From NCBI GenBank assembly GCA_947629265.1, contig CANRCZ010000003.1, positions 8,359 to 72,358 of the forward strand: a stretch of DNA of 64,000 bases. Direction: 5' to 3'. The translations under genes were made by a program, and so were the position numbers. The first letter of the stretch is position 1; each line of letters starts with the position of its first letter. The notes under the pieces were generated by a model, which did not search any database, had not been told where the DNA came from, and was given only the letters and a program-made list of their open reading frames with translations. This document shows positions 8,785 through 58,176 of the stretch, piece by piece. This DNA is from an uncultured Bacilli bacterium. Lineage in GTDB: Bacteria; Bacillota_I; Bacilli_A; RF39; UBA660.

Positions 8785-8925
8785 TATTGTATATCCTCCT
8801 TTCGCCTATATCTAGTATAGACTTGCTCCGTGTAAAAACCTGATTTACCAGTTTCAACTTTTATTTTTTTACAACTTAACCTGGCGTATCAGCAACCTCA
8901 CACATCTAAGCATGCCACACTCATC

Positions 8926-14891: not shown

Positions 14892-15773
14892 TCACTCCTT
14901 TATGTTTAATACTTCTAAAATACGATTTAGATCAGCTACATTAGTAAATGATATGATTATTTTTTTATCTTTTATTTTTATTTTAGTATCTAATTTATCT
15001 CTTAACATATTTTCAACATAAGTATAATCGTTATTATCATTATGTTTAGGTTTGTTGATTTTGACTTTTTTTTCTAAGTTTTCATCGGAAGCGATATTTT
15101 CGATATCACGAACATTCATATTTTCATCGACGATTTTATTCGCTAATTCGATAATTTTATTATCATCTTCTAATTTACTTAATATTCTAGCATGTCCCAT
15201 CGTTATATCTTTACTGTTTACCATGTTTTGAACCTCTAATGGTAATCTTAATAAACCTAAGATATTAGTGATATGACTACGGCTTTTACCTACTTTTTTA
15301 GCTAATTCATCTTGGGTTAAATGTAGTTCATCTAACATTAATTTATAAGCTGAAGCTTCTTCGACAGCTGATAAGTTTTCTCTTTGTAAATTTTCAAGTA
15401 AAGCGATCTCCATCATCTGTTCATCGGAAAAATCTCTTATAATAGCTGGTATTTTAGTAAGTCCGGCTTTTTTAGCAGCGCGAAATCTTCTTTCACCAGC
15501 GATGATATAGTAACCTTTAATACTTTTTTTAATTAGGATTGGTTGAAAAACACCATGTTCTTTTATAGACTCGGTTAATTCATCCAAAGCTTCGTTATCA
15601 AAAGTTTTTCTAGGTTGATATGGATTTGGTCTTAATTCATCTAAGTCTATCTCAAATATTTCTTCGTTATTTATGTTATCGTAAATATTTTTTTCAAATG
15701 ACTCGATATCTAGGTTTTCGGTATTGAATAATTGTTCTAAACCTCGACCTAAAGCTCTTTTTTTATTCTCCAT
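14892..15773 (-). CDS. parB: Chromosome partitioning protein ParB/Spo0J
   Basis: 293-aa ORF with the ParB N-terminal box GERRFRAA and an HTH. Immediately downstream of parA, with overlapping ends. Confidence 0.9.
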   Translation of the reverse strand: MENKKRALGRGLEQLFNTENLDIESFEKNIYDNINNEEIFEIDLDELRPNPYQPRKTFDNEALDELTESIKEHGVFQPILIKKSIKGYYIIAGERRFRAAKKAGLTKIPAIIRDFSDEQMMEIALLENLQRENLSAVEEASAYKLMLDELHLTQDELAKKVGKSRSHITNILGLLRLPLEVQNMVNSKDITMGHARILSKLEDDNKIIELANKIVDENMNVRDIENIASDENLEKKVKINKPKHNDNNDYTYVENMLRDKLDTKIKIKDKKIIISFTNVADLNRILEVLNIKE

Positions 15774-16560
15774 TACGTTCGATCACTTCCTTAGCTAAGT
15801 TAAGATATGCTTCTGTTCCTCTACTTGTTGAATCGTATAGTATTATTGGTTTTCCATGACTTGGTGCTTCTGATAGTTTAACAAGTCTAGGTATTATTGT
15901 ATCGTATACTCTTTCTTTAAAGTAACTTTTTATTTCTTCTACTACCTCTAATCCTAAGTTTGTTCTAGCATCTAACATTGTAAGAAGAACGCCCTCGATA
16001 TCTAAGGTTGGATTTATGTCTTTTTGAGCTAGCATAATTGTACTTAATAGTTGCATTATTCCCTCTAGTGCAAAGAATTCACATTGTACAGGAATAATAA
16101 CTGAATCAGCAGCTGTTAAAGCGTTTATGGTAAGAATACCTAATGATGGTGGACAATCGATTATTATGTAATCGAATAGATCTTTCGCTGGTAGCAAGTG
16201 TTTTTTTAGTTGACCACCTGATTTAAATGATGGATCTAATTTTGATTTTTCAACTAATTCTGTATCGATACCAGCTAGGTTAATAGTAGCTGGTATAGCA
16301 TATAGATTTTTACTTTTAGTTTTGATTACTACGTCTGATAATTCAGCTCTATCATTTAACAAATCGTATACACTTAAATTATAATCACTTTTTGAAATAC
16401 CTACTCCTGTTGTTGAATTTCCTTGTGGATCTAGATCAACTAGTAGGACTTTCTTTTTTAGATATCCAAGTGATGCGGAAAGGTTAATACTGGTTGTTGT
16501 TTTACCTACGCCACCCTTTTGATTAACTAATGCTATAATTTTCCCCATATTCTTCACCAT
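15763..16560 (-). CDS. parA: Chromosome partitioning ATPase ParA/Soj
   Basis: 265-aa ORF with a deviant Walker A (KGGVGKTTTSINL). Confidence 0.9.
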   Translation of the reverse strand: MVKNMGKIIALVNQKGGVGKTTTSINLSASLGYLKKKVLLVDLDPQGNSTTGVGISKSDYNLSVYDLLNDRAELSDVVIKTKSKNLYAIPATINLAGIDTELVEKSKLDPSFKSGGQLKKHLLPAKDLFDYIIIDCPPSLGILTINALTAADSVIIPVQCEFFALEGIMQLLSTIMLAQKDINPTLDIEGVLLTMLDARTNLGLEVVEEIKSYFKERVYDTIIPRLVKLSEAPSHGKPIILYDSTSRGTEAYLNLAKEVIERNGE

Positions 16561-16671: not shown

Positions 16672-17559
16672 CTATAACTTTTCGATTTCTTCTATACTTA
16701 AGCCTGTGTTTCTAGATATAACGTCAAAAGGAATACCATCAGTTTTTAGATTTTTAGCGATTTCGTTGGCTTTTTTCAATTCTCCTTGATTTATTCCTTG
16801 TTCTAAGCCATCTTCTCGAGCTTCGATGATTAGAGTGTTTCTTTCCATTTCTTCACGACTATAATCTGTGTATAGTTCCACAATGTCTTTATCCCTACTC
16901 CTTTTCTCTATCTCTTCTACTAGTTTTCCTTTTGTTTCTTTTGACATTAGATCATCACCTATCGCTTCCTCTATTTCTTCTAAGCTTGTTGCAGTTAATA
17001 ATTTGCACAATCTCGCTTTCTTTTCTTCATCTTTAGTATAACACATTTTTATCCCTCTTACCATATCTACGGAGATTATTTCGATATTTTCACTTAATAT
17101 TTTTCCACTTTCGTTTCTTAAATAATATCTTGAACATATCTTTTCTTGTCCACAATCAAAATTATTTAAACCTATTTGAATGGTCTTATTAATCTGACTA
17201 TAGTTATTATCTCCTCTTTCTAATTGTCTAGAGTGTACATTACATAAGTATACTAAATTTCTCTCTTGTATTCCTCTAGAACTATTATTATTTAATTCGA
17301 TATTTATCATATCGCCATCGTAGTCTAACAATAAGTCTACTTGTTCTCTTCTTTCTTTTTTGTTATATAACTCCAATTCCCTAGTTTTGATTTTCAATCT
17401 TCCTGTTATTTTTTCTAGAGGAATATCTGTTATAATCGATATTAAACTTTCTAGTATGTCGACATTCTTTTCCCTATTTAAAATATCAGTAAATACGAAA
17501 TCAAATGTCATTGGCAGTAACTTTAATTCTTTTTTATTTATGGTATTAATATTTTTCAT
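16672..17559 (-). CDS. Rpn-family recombination-promoting nuclease / putative transposase (PD-(D/E)XK, YhgA-like)
   Basis: 295-aa ORF. Has the N-terminal conserved region of Rpn/transposase_31 proteins and a C-terminal repeat-like tail (EQGINQGELKK...). Confidence 0.7.
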   Translation of the reverse strand: MKNINTINKKELKLLPMTFDFVFTDILNREKNVDILESLISIITDIPLEKITGRLKIKTRELELYNKKERREQVDLLLDYDGDMINIELNNNSSRGIQERNLVYLCNVHSRQLERGDNNYSQINKTIQIGLNNFDCGQEKICSRYYLRNESGKILSENIEIISVDMVRGIKMCYTKDEEKKARLCKLLTATSLEEIEEAIGDDLMSKETKGKLVEEIEKRSRDKDIVELYTDYSREEMERNTLIIEAREDGLEQGINQGELKKANEIAKNLKTDGIPFDVISRNTGLSIEEIEKL

Positions 17560-17889
17560 AATACCCTCCTTTCTGAAACCATGATATAAAAATCAAAAAT
17601 ATTTTTCAAATTACAGTTTTTCGCATTTTTGTTTAAAAAAATCGGCCTAAACTCAATTTCTGCTTAAGCAGAAATTAACGTTTTTTTCAAATTTCTGAGC
17701 GATTTTTGAATTTCTGTAATTTTTAAAAAATCGTACGCCATTATTCGACAATCGCTAGTTTACCCTTTAATTTCAACATAAAACCATACTAAAAATTTTT
17801 TTTAAATTTTTATACAAAATTTCAGATTTATTAAGAAAATACCATTTTTCAACATATTTTGACCAACGTTTTTAAATGTAAATCATTGA

Positions 17890-18762
17890 TTATTGGGGTG
17901 GTAATATTAAATTCCATGCATCTTGTCCAAATTCATCGTGTACTTTGCCTGTAGTTTGAATACCAGATTTTAGAACAATGACGGGCCGGAACCCGAGTGG
18001 GTGATAGCTGTAGCAGTAGGAAGAACCACCTTTCGAAGTCGCGTAAAGCAAGCAAGAGTCACCGTTACCGAGATCAGTTCCAGTATAGGTAGTAGCAAAC
18101 CAATACTCTGATCCAGTTGTTCGTAATGAATTACTAGCAGGAGTAATAGCGTCAAACTCAGCTTTAGTCATAGCATATGCATGCTCTGCATATGTTGAAT
18201 TTAAATATTGGTCTTTGGCACGTGCATCTAAGTTAGCTATACTATCACTTGCCTTAGGTCCATGATAGTAACATTCAGGTTGGCCGGCGTGGACTAGATA
18301 AACTTTTCCACTTTGTTTTTTTAATACACGCCAACCTTTTAACGTTGTTTTTAAATTTTCGCTCGAACACCATTCTACACTTGAATTTTTACTCTGTCCA
18401 CTTTTATAACCACCAAATCCTACTTGTGCTGGAATATCAGCTGATGAACTCCATGTACCTGCATTATACGCTACATAATCCCCTACTTGTGCTTTTTCTG
18501 ATAAATCATATGGAACTTTTTTCTCTAAATCAGATACTTGCTTCTTTAAATCATCAATTTGTACTAATGATTTATTAATTACGTCATCTAAAGCAGCTTT
18601 TACAGTTGTAGTTTTTCCATCTTTTCCAGTATAGCTCACTCCTGCACTAGTATATTCATCTAGTCCTCTACTTACACCATTCATTAATGCTACTCCTATT
18701 AATAGTCCAAAAGCAAAGACAAATCTTTTTTTATCAAAAATTCTTGTTAATATTTTTTTCAT
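17890..18762 (-). CDS. Secreted/surface protein, paralogue 1 of a four-member family in this window (N-terminal signal/TM, coiled-coil, Cys-containing globular domain)
   Basis: 290-aa ORF. Motifs shared with 54715.., 55710.. and 63792..: DGVSY, AL D[DE]LIN[KT]SL, GDYV.Y.AG.W, FGGYKA.TSKN.SV, GWRVLKK, YLVHAGQPECYYH, GFRPV[IV]VLKSG, DEFGQ.AW[KN]L. Confidence 0.8.
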   Translation of the reverse strand: MKKILTRIFDKKRFVFAFGLLIGVALMNGVSRGLDEYTSAGVSYTGKDGKTTTVKAALDDVINKSLVQIDDLKKQVSDLEKKVPYDLSEKAQVGDYVAYNAGTWSSSADIPAQVGFGGYKSGQSKNSSVEWCSSENLKTTLKGWRVLKKQSGKVYLVHAGQPECYYHGPKASDSIANLDARAKDQYLNSTYAEHAYAMTKAEFDAITPASNSLRTTGSEYWFATTYTGTDLGNGDSCLLYATSKGGSSYCYSYHPLGFRPVIVLKSGIQTTGKVHDEFGQDAWNLILPPQ

Positions 18763-26479: not shown

Positions 26480-27010
26480 CTATTCACTTAAATACTTGTT
26501 AAAAAAGTTAGCTGCTATCAAAGCTATTTTCTCTTCTAATTCCGTAATCTTATCATCAGTCGATAAAATAATAACCATACCCATCATATCACCATTGACA
26601 ATGATCGGTTTCATAACATAAGTACATTCAATTTCCTTATCTTGAACGATTTCCAACGTTTTCTTATGCTTTTCTAGTATATTCTCTCTTCTAGTTATTA
26701 AATTTATCATCTTTTCACTCAATTCCTTATTTTGAAAATCCTTTTTCAAACTACCTGATACAGCGATAATACTATCATTATCAGTAATAATTACATTATG
26801 TTTCAAAAAAGAATGCATAGAATCTGTAAAGTCTTGAGCAAAATCACCTAACCTTTTAACTAATGAATACTTTCTTAAAATAATTTGATCATGATCAACA
26901 TATATCTCAACATTTTCCCCATCTCTAATACGCATTGTTTTTCTAATTTCTTTTGGTATAACAATTCTACCTAATTCATCGATTCTTCTAACAACTCCAG
27001 TTGTTTTCAT
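26480..27010 (-). CDS. AbrB/SpoVT-family regulator (SpoVT/AbrB N-domain plus a GAF-like C-domain)
   Basis: 176-aa ORF with the swapped-hairpin motif GVVRRIDELGRIVIPKEIRKTMRI. Position downstream of mfd matches mfd-spoVT synteny in Bacillus. Confidence 0.7.
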   Translation of the reverse strand: MKTTGVVRRIDELGRIVIPKEIRKTMRIRDGENVEIYVDHDQIILRKYSLVKRLGDFAQDFTDSMHSFLKHNVIITDNDSIIAVSGSLKKDFQNKELSEKMINLITRRENILEKHKKTLEIVQDKEIECTYVMKPIIVNGDMMGMVIILSTDDKITELEEKIALIAANFFNKYLSE

Positions 27011-37543: not shown

Positions 37544-37972
37544 TCATCTTAATGATTTAAAAAAATCTTTCAATAATCCTGCTGTTTCTTCTGATAGAAT
37601 ATCACCAACAATATTTATTTTTTTTATATCACTATTGTGTATTGCACCAAAATTTTCATTTATACTACCATATACTATATTATTAATTCTTGATTGCATT
37701 ATAGCCCCTAAACACATACTACATGGTTCAATAGTTGTATATAACGTACAATTATCAAGATGCCATGTTTTTAATTTCTTACACGCTTTTTCAATTGCTA
37801 TAATTTCAGCATGCTTAGTAGCTATATTTTTATATTCTTTTTGATTGTACCCCCTAGCTATTACCTTATCGTTATATACGATAATAGCCCCTATAGGTAC
37901 ATCACCTTTTTTTAAAGCTTTCTTAGCTTCTTTTATAGCTAATGCCATATATTTTTCATGCATTTTTATCAC
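37544..37972 (-). CDS. tadA: tRNA-specific adenosine deaminase
   Basis: 142-aa ORF with CDA zinc motifs HAEIIAI and PCSMC. Confidence 0.9.
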   Translation of the reverse strand: MIKMHEKYMALAIKEAKKALKKGDVPIGAIIVYNDKVIARGYNQKEYKNIATKHAEIIAIEKACKKLKTWHLDNCTLYTTIEPCSMCLGAIMQSRINNIVYGSINENFGAIHNSDIKKINIVGDILSEETAGLLKDFFKSLR

Positions 37973-37979
37973 CTACAAA

Positions 37980-38060
37980 AAAGCACACACATTAAGTGAT
38001 CCTTAAGGCTGCTGTTTTCCAACTCTGACCTGGTTCGAATATTAATGTTGTGCTATCTAT
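37980..38060 (-). ncRNA. ffs: Small bacterial SRP RNA (4.5S/scRNA), about 75-85 nt
   Basis: The minus strand reads ...GAACCAGGUCAGAGUUGGAAAACAGCAGCC..., the conserved domain-IV motif. A terminal helix forms between AGCACAACAUUAA and UUAAUGUGUGUGCU. Position adjacent to tadA/dnaX matches Bacillus. Confidence 0.6.
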
Positions 38061-38090
38061 AATATATAATAATTAAAAAAAATAATCAAT

Positions 38091-40583: not shown

Positions 40584-43638
<3,055 letters not shown>

Positions 43639-43795
43639 ATAACACCCTCTTTTTTAATTTTAATGCCGTTTTTTTTAAAAATGACCTTAACATGTACTCC
43701 TATACACATATATAATTATACCATAAAAATAAAGAAAAAATAAGCCTTTTTTATCTTTTAAGCTTATTTTTTATAACAAATTATTCTGTTTTATT

Positions 43796-44323
43796 TTAGA
43801 TGATTATTTTTTCTTGATACATCTCATTTTTTCGTGTATTTATTATCTCTTTTAATAGTTTAGCTTTTTTTAATTGATTGTTAACTGTATAGTAAGATTT
43901 ATCAACTTGGATAGTAGAACCATTGGTAAAACATATTTGTGTATTTTTACCACATTTATTGATTTGGCTTAAATTCGCTAAATTAATCCATATACACCGA
44001 TCATCTCTAGTTGATGATAATGGAAAAAATATTATGTTGTTACTTTCTTCTATAATAATCGGTAATTTAGAGTTTAATCCAATTATATTTTTTGTTCCTG
44101 TAATCCGTCCAATATAAGAACTACCATAATAGTTACAATTATAATCTAGGATATTGATAATTTTATCTTCGATATGGTAACTATGTTTAGTTTCGATTAT
44201 ATGAACCATATTTCTATTTTTTCCAATCAATGCTAAGGTATCTTTAGTTATATTGTATTTAGACATACCATAACCCCCTCCCCAGCTAATATTAAATAAT
44301 ATTTTATTGTCGATAATTATCAA
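43796..44323 (-). CDS. comK: ComK-family competence transcription factor homologue
   Basis: 175-aa ORF with blocks resembling B. subtilis ComK: YYGSSYIGRITGT (cf. FFGSSYAGRKAGT), IFFPLSSTRDDRCIWI (cf. FLFPTLSSTRPQCGWI), FTNGSTIQVDKSY (cf. FSNGKTMELPISY). The comparison is from memory of the ComK sequence. Confidence 0.55.
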   Translation of the reverse strand: MIIIDNKILFNISWGGGYGMSKYNITKDTLALIGKNRNMVHIIETKHSYHIEDKIINILDYNCNYYGSSYIGRITGTKNIIGLNSKLPIIIEESNNIIFFPLSSTRDDRCIWINLANLSQINKCGKNTQICFTNGSTIQVDKSYYTVNNQLKKAKLLKEIINTRKNEMYQEKIII

Positions 44324-44346
44324 AAAAACTCTCTTTACGAAAGTTT

Positions 44347-45468
44347 TTATATTGTTCTAATTGGAACGACTAATTGAATAAGTTTATCATCGTCGACATT
44401 TTTAATAATAATTGGTCTAATATCACCACTGAATAATAATTCGATATTTTCACATTCTAAGGCTTTTACTGCTTCCATCATAAATTTAGAAGAGAATGAT
44501 ATGTTTATATTTTCATCATTATTTTTAGTAGCATCGATCTGTTCTTCGACATTTCCGATTTCAGGAATATTTGATGATATGACGATTTCATTTTCTTTGG
44601 TTACTAAGTTAATAGTATTTTTTTCTTCTTCGTTAGTAAATAATGAAGCTCGATCTAGTGCATTATAAAATTCATTTAAGTTAAGTTGAACTTTTAAGAA
44701 ATAATCAGTTGGTATTAATGCGGATAAGTTTGGAAAATTACCATTGATCAATCTAGACATAAAGATAATGTTATCAAATTTAAAGATTATTTTATTGCTG
44801 AAGATATGTAATTCGATATTATCTTCGTTATCACTTAATAGACGCATTAATTCGTTTAAGTTTCTAGTTGGAATGATGATATTGATTTCTTCTTTTAATG
44901 ACTCTGGTAATTCGACGATTTTTTTACTAGCGCGGTAAGAGTCAGTTGCACTTATTTCCATAATATTATTTTCACATTTAAAATTGATACCCATTAAAAC
45001 TGGTTTAGATTCTTGATTTGATGAAGCAAAGGCTGTTTGTCTAATGATATTTTTAAATGTTTGTTTATTTAATATGATAGGATCTTTATTTTCTTTTAAA
45101 TCTAAGATAGGAAATTCTGATGGAATATTACAATTTAAGTTTGTTGATGATTGTTTAGTTTCAATAATGATCTTATTATCGATTACCTCTTCAATATGGA
45201 TGATATCGTTTGGTAATTTTTTTACTATTTCATATATATATCTACCTGATACTAATATTTCACCATATGAATTTATTTTAGCGATATCTTTTTTATCGAT
45301 AAAAGTTTTAATAGCGATATCGTTATCGGTACTTAATAGATATAATCCCTCTTCGGTTAATTCAAATTTTATACAGTTTAAAACTGGTATCATATTTTTT
45401 GTAGATATTCCTTTAATTACATAGTTTAAATGTTCAATTAAAATACTTTGTTTGATTTCTAAATTCAT
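44347..45468 (-). CDS. dnaN: DNA polymerase III beta sliding clamp
   Basis: 373-aa ORF immediately downstream of dnaA, with a three-domain clamp-like sequence. Confidence 0.9.
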   Translation of the reverse strand: MNLEIKQSILIEHLNYVIKGISTKNMIPVLNCIKFELTEEGLYLLSTDNDIAIKTFIDKKDIAKINSYGEILVSGRYIYEIVKKLPNDIIHIEEVIDNKIIIETKQSSTNLNCNIPSEFPILDLKENKDPIILNKQTFKNIIRQTAFASSNQESKPVLMGINFKCENNIMEISATDSYRASKKIVELPESLKEEINIIIPTRNLNELMRLLSDNEDNIELHIFSNKIIFKFDNIIFMSRLINGNFPNLSALIPTDYFLKVQLNLNEFYNALDRASLFTNEEEKNTINLVTKENEIVISSNIPEIGNVEEQIDATKNNDENINISFSSKFMMEAVKALECENIELLFSGDIRPIIIKNVDDDKLIQLVVPIRTI

Positions 45469-45607
45469 AAATCCTCCTTTATATTTATTTTAATTATATT
45501 TATATTATAGGTGTAGAAAATGTTTAAAACTTAGTTTGATATTATAATACAACCAATTAAGTGTGTCAATAAGTTTATTTATTAAACATTTTATCGACAT
45601 TTATTTG

Positions 45608-46957
45608 TCAGTTAATGGTCTTAATCAATTTTTTTATTTCAATTTCTAGGTTAGGATCTTTCGCTATCTGTTTTTTAATCTTTTCAACAGCATGCATAAC
45701 GGTCGTATGGGTTTTTCCACCAAATTCGATACCTATTTTAGCGAGTGGTTGATCGAATTCTAGTCTACATATGTACATAGCTATTTGTCTAGGGGTATTG
45801 ATATTCGCTAATCTTTTAGTACCTCTTATTTCTTCAAGGGTTATATTATAATGTTCGGCTACAACTTGTTGGACTTGTTGAATTTTATTTTTAGAATGAA
45901 GATTGTCTTTAAATTCTTCTTTTAAAGCTTCCATCGCGATATCTAAAGTAATAATACCGGAGTTCATCATCGTTGCATAAGCGACAACTCTCGTGATCGT
46001 ACCCTCTAGTTTTCTTATGTCACTAGTACAGTTACTAGCGATATATTCTTTAACATTTTGTGGAAAATTACCGTTTATCATGTGACCCGCTACTTTATTG
46101 TCGATAATATCCATCCTTAAATTAAATTCTGGTGGTAGAATATCGATGCTTAAGCCCCATGTAAACCTAGTTCTAAGTCTTTCTTCTAGTAATTTTAAGT
46201 CTTCTGGCGATCTATCTGATGATATTATTATTTGTTTATTATTGTCGTGTAGGACATTAAAGGTATTGAAAAATTCTTGTTGTGTCTGATTAGCGCTACC
46301 TAAGTACTGAATATCATCGATAATAAGAACGTCAATATCTCGGTATTTCTTTTTGAAAAATTCGACATTATCAAAGTTATTATTAGCTTTTTTACGACTA
46401 ATACCGACAAAATCATCAACAAATTGTTCACAAGTAACATATAGAACTTTTTTCTTGCTGTTATTTACAATATAGTTACCAATAGCATGCATCAGGTGGG
46501 TTTTACCAAGTCCGCTCGAACTATACATAAATAAAGGATTATACATTGTACCTGGGTGTTCAGCGACTGCTAAAGCTGTAAGTTTCGCTAATCTGTTGCT
46601 CTCTCCTACGATGAAATTATCGAATGTATATTTAGAATTTAAGTTCGATTCAAATGCTAAAGTTGATGGAACACCGATATCATCAGTATCAATTTCAATA
46701 TTTTTTTCGATTTCTTCTGGTAATAGATATTCAAATTTAAAGTTAGAACCCGCGATTTCATTAAATATTTCTACTATTAATGAGTTATAGTTTTCTTTTA
46801 AATTCTTTTTAGTGACATGATAAGGTACGATGACCTTGGCGGTATCACCACTTAAATCATATAGTTCGGTATTAGAAAACCATGTTTCAAATGCCATCGG
46901 AGATAATTCTGGTTTGATTTTTTCTAAAAATGCATTCCATAGTTTTATCTTATCCAC
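45608..46957 (-). CDS. dnaA: Chromosomal replication initiator DnaA (GTG start)
   Basis: 449-aa ORF with an AAA+ domain (GLGKTHLMHAIGN) and a C-terminal DnaA-box-binding HTH. Confidence 0.95.
   Translation of the reverse strand: MDKIKLWNAFLEKIKPELSPMAFETWFSNTELYDLSGDTAKVIVPYHVTKKNLKENYNSLIVEIFNEIAGSNFKFEYLLPEEIEKNIEIDTDDIGVPSTLAFESNLNSKYTFDNFIVGESNRLAKLTALAVAEHPGTMYNPLFMYSSSGLGKTHLMHAIGNYIVNNSKKKVLYVTCEQFVDDFVGISRKKANNNFDNVEFFKKKYRDIDVLIIDDIQYLGSANQTQQEFFNTFNVLHDNNKQIIISSDRSPEDLKLLEERLRTRFTWGLSIDILPPEFNLRMDIIDNKVAGHMINGNFPQNVKEYIASNCTSDIRKLEGTITRVVAYATMMNSGIITLDIAMEALKEEFKDNLHSKNKIQQVQQVVAEHYNITLEEIRGTKRLANINTPRQIAMYICRLEFDQPLAKIGIEFGGKTHTTVMHAVEKIKKQIAKDPNLEIEIKKLIKTIN
46949..46957 (+). promoter_or_regulatory. 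Perfect consensus DnaA box TTATCCACA overlapping the dnaA start codon
   Basis: The sequence reads cttatccacaacc; the last three bases (CAC) are the reverse complement of the dnaA GTG start. Confidence 0.5.
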
Positions 46958-54714: not shown

Positions 54715-55593
54715 ATGATTATGAAAATGTTTAATTATTTGAAAAAATATTACAAGTTAGTTATATCATTTGTTTTAGGTGTAATGATAACTACTATGGT
54801 AGGTTATGGAGTTGGTTATGCTGTTGATAATATACCTAGTGATGGTGTTAGTTATGTAAAGAATAATAAAACTATTACTGTTAAACAAGCTTTAGATGAG
54901 TTAATAAATACGTCACTAACTAGAATTGATGATTTGGAAGCAAAGGCTAAAATTTATAAGTATGCTTATTTATATGATGCCGTTAATGTTGGAGATTATG
55001 TAGATTATGATGCTGGTAATTGGACAGCTGACGTTCCAATACCAAGTGTAGTAGGAGAATTTGGTGGATATAAAGCTAATACAAGTAAAAATGCTAGTGT
55101 GGTATGTTGGGAGCCAAGAGGTACAACAGACTTGAAAGGCTGGCGTGTACTTAAAAAAGTAAATAACCAAGTCTACCTAGTCCACGCTGGCCAACCTGAG
55201 TGTCATTATCACAAAAATGGATATAATGATACAAGTATCGAAGCTTTAAATAAACGAGCAAATGAATATAAGAATGAATATGCGGTGTCCGCTCATGCTA
55301 TGAATTATCAAGAAGCATATGATATTGATAAAACTGAATTAGATGTTGCTACCAATAATGATTTACGAAAAACTGGAGCATTTTATTATCTGGCAACACC
55401 TTACCAAACTGAAGATGATAAAAATTGGTTGTATGGTGTTAGGCAAGATGGTGCTATAACTTATATAGGTTATGCAACTGGTCTAGCGACTGGCTTTCGT
55501 CCTGTTGTAGTTTTAAAAGCAGGTATTTTAACGACAGGAAAAGGAACAGATGAATTTGGACAACCTGCATGGAAACTAGTTGAAATGAAATAA
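54715..55593 (+). CDS. Secreted/surface protein, paralogue 2 (intact ATG start, no poly-G)
   Basis: 292-aa ORF sharing the family motifs. RBS gagggag. A TGgTATAAT extended -10 sits at ~54680. Confidence 0.8.
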   Translation: MIMKMFNYLKKYYKLVISFVLGVMITTMVGYGVGYAVDNIPSDGVSYVKNNKTITVKQALDELINTSLTRIDDLEAKAKIYKYAYLYDAVNVGDYVDYDAGNWTADVPIPSVVGEFGGYKANTSKNASVVCWEPRGTTDLKGWRVLKKVNNQVYLVHAGQPECHYHKNGYNDTSIEALNKRANEYKNEYAVSAHAMNYQEAYDIDKTELDVATNNDLRKTGAFYYLATPYQTEDDKNWLYGVRQDGAITYIGYATGLATGFRPVVVLKAGILTTGKGTDEFGQPAWKLVEMK

Positions 55594-55709: not shown

Positions 55710-56514
55710 ATGAAAGAGAAAATAAAGCTTGGGGGGGGGTTATCTACTAATAATTTTGGTACTATTAGTAGTAACTAATGGTATTACGTATGGAGCTAGT
55801 CAGTTAACTAGCGATGGTGTGAGCTACCAGAAAAATGGTGAAACTATAACAGTGACGAAAGCGCTAGACGATTTAATCAATACGTCACTAACTAAAATTG
55901 ATGAATTAGAGGCAAAAGCTAAAATTTATAGATATGCTGAATTGGTAGACGTTGTTGAAATTGGAGATTATGTAAATTATGATGCTGGTAAATGGTCTAC
56001 GTCGAAAACAAAGCCAGAAAGTCAGGGGCAGTTCGGTGGATATAATGCTAATACTAGCAAAAATGCCAGTGTTGCATGTTACGAAGAAACAGCTCCAAAA
56101 TATCAAGGATGGAGAGTTTTGTCAAAAGATACAAATTCTAGAACTGTAACTATCATTCATGCTGGTCAACCCGAATGTTATTATCATGCTAGTGGATATA
56201 GCGATGCAAGTGTAGAACTTTTAAATAAAGAAGCAGAACAATATATGAATACATATGCAAAGTCAGCACGTTCAATTATTGGAGATGACATAAATTCTTT
56301 GGGTGGTAATGATTTAAGAAATATCGGATCAGAATATTGGTTGGCGTCTAAGAATGGTCAATACCATTTATATATGGTTCGTGCATCAGGTGGAGAAGCA
56401 TGGTCTCATACTGCTGCAATGGGTTTCCGTCCAGTAATTGTCTTAAAATCTGAAACATTAACCAATGGTAAAATAAAAGATCAATTTAATAATGATGCTT
56501 GGAAACTAATTTAA
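55710..56514 (+). CDS. Secreted/surface protein, paralogue 3. Putatively phase-variable and currently out of frame: ATG...poly-G(9) in frame 1, the rest of the ORF in frame 2.
   Basis: ATG at 55710 with RBS taggag. MKEKIKLGGG then runs into a stop. The 261-aa ORF 55729-56514 is in the +1 frame; G8 instead of G9 would fuse the two. Confidence 0.7.
55731..55739 (+). repeat. Homopolymeric G(9) tract in the 5' coding region; candidate slipped-strand phase-variation switch
   Basis: Counted directly: gctt-GGGGGGGGG-ttatc. Confidence 0.9.
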
Positions 56515-56610: not shown

Positions 56611-58176
56611 ATGTATAAGAATAAGAAAGGGTGTACTGGTATGAATATAGAAAGAGAAGTACAAATTTTAAATATAAATGATATTTTGCCTAATAGATTT
56701 CAACCAAGAATTACCTTTGATGAAAAAGCTATCATGGAATTAGCGGAATCAATCAAAACTCATGGTGTAATTCAACCAATTGTCGTAAGAAAAGTAGCAG
56801 ATAAATATGAAATTATCGCTGGTGAAAGAAGATATAAAGCTAGTATCATCGCAGGTAAAACAACCATTCCAGCTATTGTAACTGATTTAGATGATAAAGA
56901 TAGTGCCGAGGTAGCGTTAATTGAAAACGTTCAAAGACAAGATTTAACACCTATCGAAGAAGCTATATCTTATAAAAAAATCTTAGATATGGGATATCTA
57001 AATCAATCAGAACTAGCAACAAAATTAGGCAAAACACAATCAACAATCGCTAATAAACTACGTCTTTTAAATTTAACAGACGAGGTTCAAGAAGCATTAT
57101 TAAAAGAAAAAATATCTGAAAGACACGCCCGTTCTTTATTAAAATTGGATAAATCTAAACAAAATGAAATGCTTAATCGTATTATAACTGAACGAATGAC
57201 AGTTAGAAAAACCGATGAAGAAATTGCAAAAATAACTAACAACGTCGAAATGTTAGATTTCGGCAAAAAGGAGGATGTGTCTATGAATAATCAAATAAAT
57301 AGTTCTAATATTCCAACTTCACCAATAATTGAACCAAATCCTATGAATAACGTGCCAAACGTACCAAATGTTTCTCAAGACTTAAATGTTGATAATATGG
57401 TACCAGAACCAAATATCGAACCATTCAATATCGATACTTTATCTACTAATGATAATCTTCAAACAGTACCAACATCAAATAGCTATTTAGATGAAATACC
57501 AACAACAGAAACTATCAATCCAGGATTTATGGATATTAATAAAATCGAAGCTGAAGCTACTAATATCAATCCTACTATGGGTAATAGCGGTTCATTCATT
57601 AATAATGAACCAAACCAAAACCTAGATAGCATAATTAATCAACCAACATATACAACACCAATTGATCAACCAAATGATAATGGTCAACCAGCAGGTGGAA
57701 GATTTTTCTCTAATCAAATAGAAGAACCTAATCAACCTCAAGATAATAATTTAGATAATATGTTTGATAGTAACAACATATTTACTCAAGATATGAATTT
57801 TAATCAACCACAATTTGATCAACCATATCAAAATCAAACCAATAACGCTAACAACAATGCTGGCTTTAACCCAGCTTTAGCAAGTTTTAACTTAGGTAGT
57901 CAACCACAATTTGATGCTCCACAACCAGAACCAGCACCACAAAATATAAATACAAGTGTTGTTGAACTTGGTGGAACAGGATTTATGAACGAAGAACCAA
58001 TCTTACAACCATTAATGAACAATAACGAACCAGTTGTTAGACATGATATGAAAGAAGCTATATCAATAATTAGAAGCTGTTCAAAACAAATTGAAAACTT
58101 AGGATTTAAGTTAGACGTTGAAGAGATAGATTTTGAAAATTTCTATCAAGCAACATTCAAAATCGAAAAACCATAA
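56611..58176 (+). CDS. ParB/Noc-family paralogue: ParB N-domain, HTH, then a ~300-aa N/Q/P-rich low-complexity region and a short C-terminal domain. The likely start is the ATG at 56641 after RBS agaaaggg.
   Basis: 521-aa ORF. GERRYKAS arginine patch, HTH (QSELATKLGKTQSTIANKL), then ...NNQINSSNIPTSPIIEPNPMNNVPNVPNVSQ...QPQFDQPYQNQTNNANNNAGFNPA... Confidence 0.75.
   Translation: MYKNKKGCTGMNIEREVQILNINDILPNRFQPRITFDEKAIMELAESIKTHGVIQPIVVRKVADKYEIIAGERRYKASIIAGKTTIPAIVTDLDDKDSAEVALIENVQRQDLTPIEEAISYKKILDMGYLNQSELATKLGKTQSTIANKLRLLNLTDEVQEALLKEKISERHARSLLKLDKSKQNEMLNRIITERMTVRKTDEEIAKITNNVEMLDFGKKEDVSMNNQINSSNIPTSPIIEPNPMNNVPNVPNVSQDLNVDNMVPEPNIEPFNIDTLSTNDNLQTVPTSNSYLDEIPTTETINPGFMDINKIEAEATNINPTMGNSGSFINNEPNQNLDSIINQPTYTTPIDQPNDNGQPAGGRFFSNQIEEPNQPQDNNLDNMFDSNNIFTQDMNFNQPQFDQPYQNQTNNANNNAGFNPALASFNLGSQPQFDAPQPEPAPQNINTSVVELGGTGFMNEEPILQPLMNNNEPVVRHDMKEAISIIRSCSKQIENLGFKLDVEEIDFENFYQATFKIEKP

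What the first reader, a model, noticed from the sequence alone, without database searches (positions are those of the whole stretch)
43796..44323. ComK-like competence master regulator inserted between dnaN and recF
The 175-aa protein matches B. subtilis ComK blocks (GSSY.GR..GT, FFPLSSTR..C.WI, F[TS]NG.T...SY). In Bacillus, the dnaN-recF slot holds the tiny S4-like yaaA, not comK. A ComK homologue in a ~28% GC organism whose origin region otherwise resembles Mollicutes/Erysipelotrichia would imply a natural-competence regulon. It lies immediately downstream of dnaN with only a 23-bp gap, so it may be co-transcribed.
Basis: partly seen in the sequence, partly recalled or inferred. Interest (0 to 1): 0.6.

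Follow-up and report, generated by a model that had tools for sequence, protein, structure and literature searches.

The report
ComK-family regulator gene beside the replication origin
This is a real, intact ComK-family transcription-factor gene with its own promoter, held between dnaN and recF across a whole lineage of uncultured low-GC gut and rumen bacteria. It is a new member of a known family, and nothing here shows whether it switches on DNA uptake.

Summary
The gene is real and belongs to the ComK family (Pfam PF06338, E=4e-35, full length; 30% identity to B. subtilis ComK). Three details need correction.

- **Length.** The protein is 156 aa, starting at ATG 44266 behind a GGGGAGGGGG ribosome-binding site, not 175 aa.
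- **Gap to dnaN.** The gap is therefore 80 bp, not 23. It holds a terminator-like hairpin and a promoter, so co-transcription with dnaN is not favoured.
- **Origin of the gene.** It is not a recent insertion. About 90 of 93 related loci show the same dnaA-dnaN-comK-recF-gyrB order.

The clade is a short form of 147-157 aa. It lacks the C-terminal ~35-residue tail that B. subtilis ComK needs to activate transcription.

The unexpected result is in the promoter. Across the clade it carries 2-4 direct TTCGACA boxes in exact 10-bp phase. These are about 150-fold enriched, always in one orientation, and usually sit 11 nt upstream of the -10 element. TTCGACA is the reverse complement of the Spo0A box TGTCGAA, and the window also encodes SpoVT. 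This suggests direct Spo0A control, as is known for B. subtilis comK.

No late competence genes and no K-box enrichment were found in the 64 kb. The claimed competence regulon therefore remains untested. Verdict: a new member of a known kind, of moderate interest.

The parts
43796..44266 (-). comK-family coding sequence (156 aa plus stop), short tail-less form
   Evidence: Pfam PF06338 E=4e-35, full length. Start chosen from the homologue alignment and the RBS. AF2 model has mean pLDDT 93.4.
44274..44283 (-). ribosome-binding site GGGGAGGGGG, 7 nt upstream of ATG 44266
   Evidence: Read directly from the sequence. An equivalent GGGAGG/GGGGG site sits before the ATG in all orthologous loci.
44291..44301 (-). 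-10 region with two overlapping candidates: TATTAT (44301..44296) and TTTAAT (44296..44291)
   Evidence: TTGATA-16-TATTAT scores 10/12. TTTAAT lies 11 nt after the proximal box, which is the spacing seen in 28 of 43 orthologous promoters.
44306..44316 (-). proximal box TTATCGACAAT (core ATCGACA at 44314..44308). It matches the Spo0A box in 6 of 7 positions and the DnaA box TTATCCACA in 8 of 9
   Evidence: The clade consensus is TTCGACA(A/T)A.
44318..44324 (-). second, degenerate box TTTGATA, 10 bp upstream of the proximal box. It also supplies the -35-like TTGATA hexamer
   Evidence: It is in 10-bp phase with the proximal box. It corresponds to the weak middle box (TTtgAcA) of the clade profile.
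44322..44348 (-). terminator-like hairpin plus U-run immediately after the dnaN stop codon
   Evidence: RNA fold dG -8.8 kcal/mol, z -3.52. A hairpin plus T-run is at the same place in the relatives.
43729..43772 (-). terminator-like hairpin plus U-run downstream of comK
   Evidence: RNA fold dG -12.1 kcal/mol, z -3.08.
43694..43723 (-). recF's own promoter (extended -10 TGGTATAAT at 43723..43715) and conserved 5' leader hairpin GTATAGGAGTAC (43705..43694). This is context showing that recF does not depend on comK transcription
   Evidence: TGnTATAAT is present in nearly all of the 62 unique comK-recF spacers, and the GT[AG]TAGG motif in 42 of them.
44347..45468 (-). dnaN (upstream neighbour)
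   Evidence: translation. Pfam DNA_pol3_beta on the orthologues.
42502..43638 (-). recF (downstream neighbour)
   Evidence: translation. Pfam SMC_N on the orthologues.

Best explanation
Shown: window 43796..44266 (minus strand) encodes an intact, conserved 156-aa ComK-family DNA-binding protein. Shown: its position between dnaN and recF, next to oriC, is fixed across a whole lineage of uncultured low-GC Bacilli from gut and rumen. Inferred from sequence and conservation: it is a monocistronic unit. A hairpin plus U-run follows dnaN, the gene has its own promoter and a strong RBS, and a second hairpin precedes recF's own TGnTATAAT promoter. Inferred: transcription is controlled through 2-4 direct TTCGACA(A/T)A boxes in 10-bp phase that overlap the -35 and spacer region. 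No proper -35 sits at 17 bp. A TTGACA-like middle box sits 21 bp from the -10, and the proximal box ends 11 nt before it. These boxes match the Spo0A '0A box' (TGTCGAA, tandem boxes separated by 3 bp), so the most likely regulator is Spo0A~P. The link would be the same as in B. subtilis, where Spo0A~P binds PcomK directly, but here it is built into a compact spoIIG/spoIIE-like promoter. Inferred by homology only: the protein turns on (or modulates) DNA-uptake and recombination genes, or a K-state-like programme, at entry into stationary phase or sporulation. Because it lacks the C-terminal tail that B. subtilis ComK needs for cooperative activation, its way of acting on target promoters probably differs from the B. 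subtilis tetramer-on-K-box model.
For: Selection: 17 invariant and 13 near-invariant columns among 34 clade members at 34-52% identity. Synteny: and the tblastn survey of 93 loci. Transcription unit: promoter TTGATA-16-TATTAT, hairpins, recF promoter. Boxes: TCGACA occurs at 7.26/kb in 70 unique dnaN-comK spacers against 0.049/kb in 370 kb of flanks; 72 are forward and 2 reverse; spacings are 10 bp (29 times) and 20 bp (36 times). 44 of 70 spacers have at least 2 phased boxes, against 0 of 59 comK-recF spacers and 0.01 expected in shuffles; the -10 is 11 nt after the proximal box in 28 of 43. Arrays are essentially confined to this promoter (76 pairs inside, 9 outside). 0A-box definition and geometry: core TGTCGAA flanked by A/T and conserved from Bacillus to C. 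difficile (PMC3485338); Spo0A dimers on boxes separated by 3 bp (PMC2731898). Spo0A~P binds PcomK directly in B. subtilis (PMC3297582). Sporulation heritage: SpoVT in the window, SpoVT_C E=4.5e-32. spo0A is reported in most related uncultured orders (PMC10868615).
Against: No late competence gene lies in the 64 kb. AT-boxes number 23 against 23.6 expected. K-box-like sites number 7 against 9.5+-4. The protein lacks the ~35-aa C-terminal tail whose removal abolishes activation by B. subtilis ComK (preprint 10.64898/2026.03.17.710445, citing Susanna 2006). The presence of spo0A in this genome or its relatives could not be checked. The window's own promoter has only one 6/7 box plus one degenerate box. 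That box is equally close to a DnaA box (TTATCGACA, 8/9), and the promoter also reads as an ordinary TTGATA-16-TATTAT sigma-A promoter with the box inside the spacer, which would fit repression rather than activation. The 21-22 bp spacing rule for Spo0A-activated promoters is from my memory and was not verified in a paper here.
Confidence: 0.55

Rival explanations
1. The phased TTCGACA direct repeats are ComK's own operator, giving positive autoregulation as in B. subtilis. In this clade ComK would then recognise direct repeats rather than A4N5T4 boxes, in the manner of LytTR-type regulators.
For: The boxes travel with comK even where the gene sits elsewhere (pcrA-ligA-comK-cca-dnaD in L048, L066 and L068, with NGACA/TCTACA phased boxes). 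The strongest boxes are 20 bp apart with a weak middle box. The AF2 model's best solved-structure matches are LytTR domains: 3d6w E=6.8e-3, prob 1.0; ComE 4cbv; AgrA 4xqn. These domains bind direct repeats. Some sublineages have a different phased box (AAAAGGAAAA twice in L022, L037 and L072), as expected if the site co-evolves with a fast-evolving factor. ComK is only 50% identical where its neighbours are 76-92% identical.
Against: The 7-mer and its A/T flanks equal the Spo0A consensus exactly, and the 7+3 bp geometry is the Spo0A one (PMC3485338, PMC2731898). A coincidence of that kind is unlikely. The structural similarity is weak (TM 0.37-0.5). The proximal box ends at about -24, closer to the -10 than LytTR activator sites usually lie (my knowledge).
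Confidence: 0.2
2. The protein is a ComK-family DNA-binding protein that does not control transformation. Lacking the activation tail, it acts as a repressor or as a regulator of DNA replication and repair functions near which it is always encoded.
For: It lacks the tail needed for activation in B. subtilis (preprint 10.64898/2026.03.17.710445). It always sits among DNA-metabolism genes, either dnaN/recF or pcrA-ligA/cca-dnaD-nth. No com genes or K-box signal occur in the window.
Against: It is transcriptionally insulated from its neighbours. All experimentally studied ComK-family members that I know of regulate competence genes. 64 kb is too small a sample to say that com genes are absent.
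Confidence: 0.25
3. One reading: comK is a recent insertion that rides on the dnaN transcript across a 23-bp gap.
For: The maximal ORF from TTG 44323 does leave 23 bp. The hairpin after dnaN is AU-rich and was not called by the simple terminator scan, so some read-through is possible.
Against: The order is conserved in about 90 of 93 loci. The homologues' N-termini and the RBS place the start at 44266. The hairpin has z -3.5. A conserved boxed promoter sits in the gap. GC content matches that of the neighbours.
Confidence: 0.07
4. The boxes are variant DnaA boxes, so comK is tied to DnaA and replication status rather than to Spo0A.
For: The window box TTATCGACA matches 8 of 9 DnaA-box positions, and the same 9-mer recurs at 45591 (dnaA-dnaN spacer) and at 46107. 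14 of 70 relatives have a perfect inverted DnaA-box pair (TTATCCAC-N-GTGGAWAA) in the same spacer. The locus is next to oriC.
Against: In the clade the base before TCGACA is T in 75% of cases, and G is invariant where a DnaA box has C. The same loci use canonical TTATCCAC elsewhere, so the two motifs are distinct.
Confidence: 0.07

Closest known systems
Bacillus subtilis ComK (competence master regulator, 192 aa)
   Same: Same Pfam family. It aligns over residues 9-157 at 30% identity, with the C..(Y/F)GSS..GR, K.P, FP, C.W, F.NG and SY...NQ blocks conserved. Its promoter is also bound directly by Spo0A~P (PMC3297582).
   Different: The window protein lacks the N-terminal ~8 and the C-terminal ~35 residues. 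That tail is required for activation and inter-box cooperativity in B. subtilis. The chromosomal location differs, since B. subtilis has yaaA in the dnaN-recF slot (my knowledge). Its promoter has a compact phased array of consensus 0A-type boxes in place of scattered near-consensus sites plus K-boxes with Rok, CodY and DegU inputs. No K-box signal was found here.
Other ComK-family members (Staphylococcus aureus ComK1/ComK2, Listeria ComK, B. cereus ComK1/2, B. coagulans ComK)
   Same: They are ComK-domain proteins in Bacilli, some of them in species with little or no demonstrable transformation (PMC12491500, PMC3536758).
   Different: Those are mostly the long ~190-aa form. In the exhaustive search, the window's nearest relatives are 145-157 aa, and the ~192-aa forms appear only at E around 1e-16 to 1e-19. 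None is reported at dnaN-recF; a three-term literature search found nothing.
Spo0A-dependent sigma-A promoters (spoIIG, spoIIE; tandem 0A boxes at abrB and phage phi29/Nf promoters)
   Same: TGTCGAA core with A/T flanks. Tandem boxes separated by 3 bp. Boxes overlapping a mis-spaced -35-like element (PMC3485338, PMC2731898; the 21-22 bp spacing is from my knowledge).
   Different: The downstream gene is comK. An extra strong box lies at about -30..-24. Binding by Spo0A is not demonstrated, and spo0A is not confirmed in these genomes.
LytTR DNA-binding domains (AgrA, ComE, B. cereus 3d6w)
   Same: They are the best structural matches to the AF2 model. A 2026 preprint independently groups ComK with LytTR, RemA and SwrD folds (PMC13232269).
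   Different: The similarity is weak (E 7e-3 to 0.2, TM 0.35-0.5, 8-13% identity). There is no sequence relationship, and ComK has an added long C-terminal helix.

Membership tests
ComK family (Pfam PF06338) | Significant full-length match to the family profile | tested here: met
   E=4e-35, 121.3 bits against a cut-off of 22.3, profile positions 2-150 of 152. All 135 listed relatives carry PF06338.
ComK family (Pfam PF06338) | Conserved core blocks shared with B. subtilis ComK | tested here: met
The invariant columns are C44, G48, S49, S50, G53, R54, K67, P69, E74, F81, P82, F113, Q131 and L138.
B. subtilis-type competence master regulator | C-terminal ~35-residue tail needed for transcription activation and inter-box cooperativity | tested here: not met
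   The protein ends about 10 residues after the position aligned to B. subtilis residue 157. Clade lengths are 145-157 aa against about 192 aa for the long forms. The requirement is described in preprint 10.64898/2026.03.17.710445.
B. subtilis-type competence master regulator | K-boxes (paired AAAA-N5-TTTT) at its own promoter and at target promoters | tested here: inconclusive
   In the window, AT-boxes number 23 against 23.6 expected and K-box-like sites 7 against 9.5+-4. One 2-mismatch K-box-like site spans the comK promoter (44293-44336). In the orthologous promoters 18 of 70 have one, against 6.4+-2.5 in shuffles, but these arise mostly from terminator A/T runs and their positions vary.
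B. subtilis-type competence master regulator | Late competence operons (comG, comE, comF, dprA, ssbB) present and under its control | not testable with these tools
   None lies in the 64 kb. The organism is otherwise represented only by 1-5 kb contigs.
Spo0A-controlled promoter | 0A-box core TGTCGAA (here read as TTCGACA) with A/T flanks | tested here: met
   In the clade, 41 of 70 spacers have the exact 7-mer and 52 of 70 the exact TCGACA. This is about a 150-fold enrichment with 72 forward against 2 reverse. The window itself has ATCGACA (6/7) plus TTTGATA.
Spo0A-controlled promoter | Tandem boxes separated by 3 bp (10-bp phase) | tested here: met
   Spacings are 10 bp (29 times) and 20 bp (36 times), with almost nothing else. 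The geometry is described in PMC2731898.
Spo0A-controlled promoter | spo0A present in the same genome, and Spo0A binding to the site | not testable with these tools
   The only support is indirect. spoVT is in the window, and spo0A is reported for RF39, RFN20 families CAG-631 and CAG-449, and Erysipelotrichales, but not for CAG-288 or CAG-826 (PMC10868615). The window's taxon is unknown.
YaaA/RlbA-type S4-like occupant of the dnaN-recF slot (Bacillus arrangement) | A small S4-domain ORF between dnaN and recF | tested here: not met
   The only minus-strand ORF of 50 aa or more listed between 43639 and 44346 is the ComK gene, and its only Pfam hit is ComK; ORFs below 50 aa were not listed. The 157-bp comK-recF spacer holds a hairpin, recF's promoter and a leader.

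The most novel reading that the evidence does not exclude
In this lineage ComK itself, a tail-less protein with a LytTR-like fold, has switched specificity from A4N5T4 K-boxes to phased TTCGACA direct repeats that mimic Spo0A boxes. ComK and Spo0A would then compete or cooperate on the same operators. In lineages that lost spo0A, ComK would have inherited part of the Spo0A regulon.
Probability: 0.12. Interest if true: 0.7.

Novelty: new member of a known kind. Interest (0 to 1): 0.4.

Why it matters
These bacteria are abundant gut and rumen Bacilli with no cultured representatives and small, AT-rich genomes. A conserved ComK gene suggests that they keep a developmental switch related to competence. 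Its promoter suggests that this switch is hard-wired to the sporulation master regulator. If so, horizontal gene uptake in this lineage would be coupled to the decision to sporulate. The compact promoter would also be a clean natural model of the Spo0A-to-ComK link, which in B. subtilis is buried under Rok, CodY, DegU and AbrB inputs. The tail-less form also tests, in nature, the recent claim that ComK's disordered tail is essential for function. None of this changes the basic picture: it is a ComK-family gene that a standard annotation pipeline would already name as such.

Tried and rejected
- **NCBIfam scan:** no hit.
- **PDB sequence search:** no solved ComK.
- **Structure job:** It was rerun with alignment A2.
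- **Walking beyond the window:** looking up proteins at the window's edges found only 0.9-2.4 kb contigs from samples ERZ27249635 and ERZ27249643. The rest of the genome, including spo0A and the com operons, could not be examined.
- **Cluster look-up:** it returned no names or taxa.
- **K-box and AT-box statistics:** they gave no signal in the window. In orthologous promoters the enrichment was confounded by the terminators.
- **Rfam:** nothing in the dnaN-recF region; only SRP RNA and an S10 leader elsewhere.
- **Literature searches:** nothing on comK at dnaN-recF or on competence in RF39, RFN20 or Tenericutes-like lineages.
- **Considered and rejected:**
  - A pseudogene or chance ORF, because of strong conservation.
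  - Recent horizontal insertion, because of conserved synteny and matching GC.
  - TTG 44323 as the start codon.
  - A small leader peptide upstream of recF, because it has no RBS and is not conserved as an ORF.

Full report
**Observation.** The ORF reported at 43796..44323 exists on the minus strand. The gene order on that strand is dnaA (46957..45608), dnaN (45468..44347), the ORF, recF (43638..42502), gyrB and gyrA. GC skew changes sign near 47 kb, so this is the origin region of a ~27% GC genome. The 156-aa core matches Pfam ComK (PF06338) with E=4e-35 over profile positions 2-150 of 152. NCBIfam gave no hit. The family assignment is therefore secure.

**Corrections to the gene model.** All homologues begin 1-3 residues before the conserved Y-(E/N)-I. 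ATG 44266 is preceded by GGGGAGGGGG at 44283..44274. The TTG at 44323 belongs to a TTGATA hexamer that forms a promoter-like site, TTGATA-16-TATTAT. The protein is thus 156 aa and the gap to dnaN is 80 bp.
- The gap begins with a hairpin plus U-run right after the dnaN stop (dG -8.8 kcal/mol, z -3.5).
- A second hairpin follows comK (dG -12.1 kcal/mol, z -3.1).
- recF then has its own extended -10 promoter, TGGTATAAT.

Co-transcription with dnaN is not the favoured reading, although some read-through cannot be excluded.

**Not an insertion.** A genome-collection scan, exact-protein look-ups and a metagenome scan gave 93 related loci. A tblastn survey with the window's DnaA, DnaN, ComK, RecF and GyrB shows dnaA-dnaN-comK-recF-gyrB in about 90 of them. 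DnaA identity to the window runs from 35 to 86%. The samples include cattle rumen, human gut (including Hadza) and others.

Three loci (L048, L066, L068) instead have pcrA-ligA-comK-cca-dnaD-nth. A few have extra DNA between dnaN and comK. ComK evolves faster than its neighbours. In L003 it is 50% identical where DnaA, DnaN, RecF and GyrB are 86, 83, 76 and 92%. Even so, 17 columns are invariant across 34 members.

An exhaustive HMMER search of 1.84 billion representatives finds a small family: 982 at E<=1e-3, 291 at E<=1e-10 and only one at E<=1e-30.

**A short, tail-less form.** The nearest relatives are 145-157 aa. The ~192-aa Bacillus-type proteins appear only at E around 1e-16 to 1e-19, with extra residues at both ends. 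The window protein ends about ten residues after the position aligned to B. subtilis residue 157. In B. subtilis, deleting the C-terminal 35 residues abolishes activation. A 2026 preprint attributes inter-box cooperativity to this disordered tail (10.64898/2026.03.17.710445). This clade therefore lacks a feature that the model ComK needs.

The AF2 model is confident (pLDDT 93.4). No ComK structure is solved. The best solved-structure matches are weak LytTR-domain hits, a resemblance already noted in a preprint (PMC13232269).

**The promoter.** Comparing 70 unique dnaN-comK spacers shows one architecture:
1. The dnaN terminator hairpin plus T-run.
2. Two to four direct TTCGACA(A/T)A boxes in exact 10-bp phase.
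3. Eleven nucleotides.
4. A -10 element (TATAAG, TATAGT or TATTAT, often preceded by TG).
5. A short leader and a GGGAGG RBS.

The statistics are strong:
- TCGACA occurs at 7.26 per kb in these spacers against 0.049 per kb in 370 kb of flanking sequence.
- 72 copies are forward and 2 reverse, and spacings are 10 and 20 bp almost exclusively.
- 44 of 70 spacers have two or more phased boxes, against 0 of 59 comK-recF spacers and 0.01 expected in shuffles.
- Phased pairs are essentially confined to this promoter, and the few outside are DnaA-box-like TTTCCACA in oriC.

No -35 hexamer sits at 17 bp. The weak middle box reads TTGACA-like, 21 bp from the -10.

**Identity of the boxes.** TTCGACA is the reverse complement of the Spo0A box TGTCGAA. 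That core is flanked by A/T and is conserved from Bacillus to C. difficile (PMC3485338). Spo0A dimers occupy boxes separated by 3 bp (PMC2731898). B. subtilis PcomK is bound directly by Spo0A~P at activating and repressing sites (PMC3297582). From my own knowledge, Spo0A-activated sigma-A promoters such as spoIIG and spoIIE have a -35-like element 21-22 bp from the -10, overlapped by 0A boxes.

The window encodes SpoVT (SpoVT_C E=4.5e-32). A phylogenomic study reports spo0A in most of the related uncultured orders (PMC10868615). Direct Spo0A control is therefore my preferred reading.

It is not proven, for three reasons:
- spo0A could not be looked for in these genomes.
- The window's own promoter has only one 6/7 box plus a degenerate one.
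- That box, TTATCGACA, also matches 8 of 9 DnaA-box positions, and it lies inside the spacer of a normal-looking sigma-A promoter.

**Competence.** No comG, comE, comF, dprA or ssbB lies in the 64 kb; the single ssb is the housekeeping rpsF-ssb copy. AAAA-N5-TTTT boxes occur at chance frequency, 23 against 23.6. K-box-like pairs number 7 against 9.5+-4. One 2-mismatch K-box-like site spans the comK promoter. The excess of such sites in orthologous promoters (18 of 70 against 6.4) comes mainly from terminator A/T runs at variable positions. The claimed competence regulon is therefore neither supported nor refuted.

**Rivals.**
- (a) The boxes are ComK's own operator. Points in favour are the LytTR-like fold, the fact that the boxes travel with the gene, and alternative box types in some sublineages.
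- (b) The tail-less protein is not a competence activator at all.
- (d) The boxes are DnaA boxes, which is unlikely because G is invariant where DnaA boxes have C and canonical TTATCCAC is used nearby.

**Verdict.** This is a genuine ComK-family gene and a new member of a known kind. It has a lineage-wide origin-proximal position not found in the literature searched, a tail-less architecture and a strikingly conserved Spo0A-type promoter. Interest is moderate.

Noticed in passing
window 43694-43723 (minus strand); comK-recF spacers of L001-L093: recF has a strongly conserved extended -10 promoter (TGnTATAAT). About 9 nt after it comes a conserved small palindromic element (GTATAGGAGTAC or GTGTAGGTATACAC) at the predicted 5' end of a 60-70 nt leader. 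The GT[AG]TAGG motif is present in 42 of 62 unique spacers. There is no Rfam match.
   Followed up: partly
L004, L005, L028, L046, L050, L054, L079, L083, L088, L089, L091 and others, directly after dnaN; also L006, L009, L041, L053, L080 and L092 near the comK RBS: Inverted pairs of perfect DnaA-box halves (TTATCCAC-N4-9-GTGGAWAA) form the dnaN terminator hairpin or a leader hairpin in 14 of 70 spacers. They may be DnaA-binding sites next to comK.
   Followed up: partly
L022-L024, L037, L072 (dnaN-comK spacer): These loci lack TCGACA boxes. At the same place they carry two AAAAGGAAAA repeats in 10-bp phase, upstream of a TATTATAC -10 element. This may be a rewired promoter, conceivably in lineages without spo0A.
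   Followed up: no
L048, L066, L068: A minority sublineage has comK between pcrA-ligA and cca-dnaD-nth instead of dnaN-recF. The phased boxes are still present but degenerate (TCTACA, NGACA).
   Followed up: partly
window 26480-27010 (minus strand): A SpoVT homologue (AbrB-type N-terminus plus SpoVT_C, E=4.5e-32) lies directly after mfd, as in B. subtilis. However, spoIIE, yabP and yabQ are absent from the stretch leading to tilS-ftsH. This points to a sporulating or formerly sporulating ancestry for this ~27% GC organism.
   Followed up: partly
window 17890-18762 (minus), 54715-55593 (plus), 55729-56514 (plus): Three paralogous ~260-290 aa proteins share an N-terminal membrane anchor and conserved blocks (G.SY....KT.TVK.ALD.LIN.SL..IDDL, GWRVLKK, HAGQPECYYH, GFRPV.VLK). 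The one that was scanned has no Pfam match.
   Followed up: no
window 56611-58176 (plus strand): A second ParB/Noc-like protein of 521 aa has a ~300-residue N/Q/P-rich low-complexity C-terminal half. It is separate from the soj-spo0J pair at 14892-16560.
   Followed up: no
window 16672-17559 (minus strand) and 17791-17848: A PD-(D/E)XK 'transposase' (Rpn-like, PF12784) gene lies here. Just upstream is the window's only near-perfect K-box-like pair (AAAA-N5-TTTT twice with a 31-bp spacer, 1 mismatch).
   Followed up: no
window 37968-38064 (minus strand) and 8802-8916 (minus strand): Rfam finds a small SRP RNA (59.6 bits) and an S10-Clostridia ribosomal-protein leader (36.1 bits, just above the family's threshold).
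   Followed up: no
window 45591 (plus strand), 46107 and 44316 (minus strand); 47030: The 9-mer TTATCGACA recurs three times around dnaA and dnaN. A single exact TGTCGAA lies about 70 bp upstream of the dnaA start. Canonical TTATCCACA boxes are few in this oriC region.
   Followed up: partly
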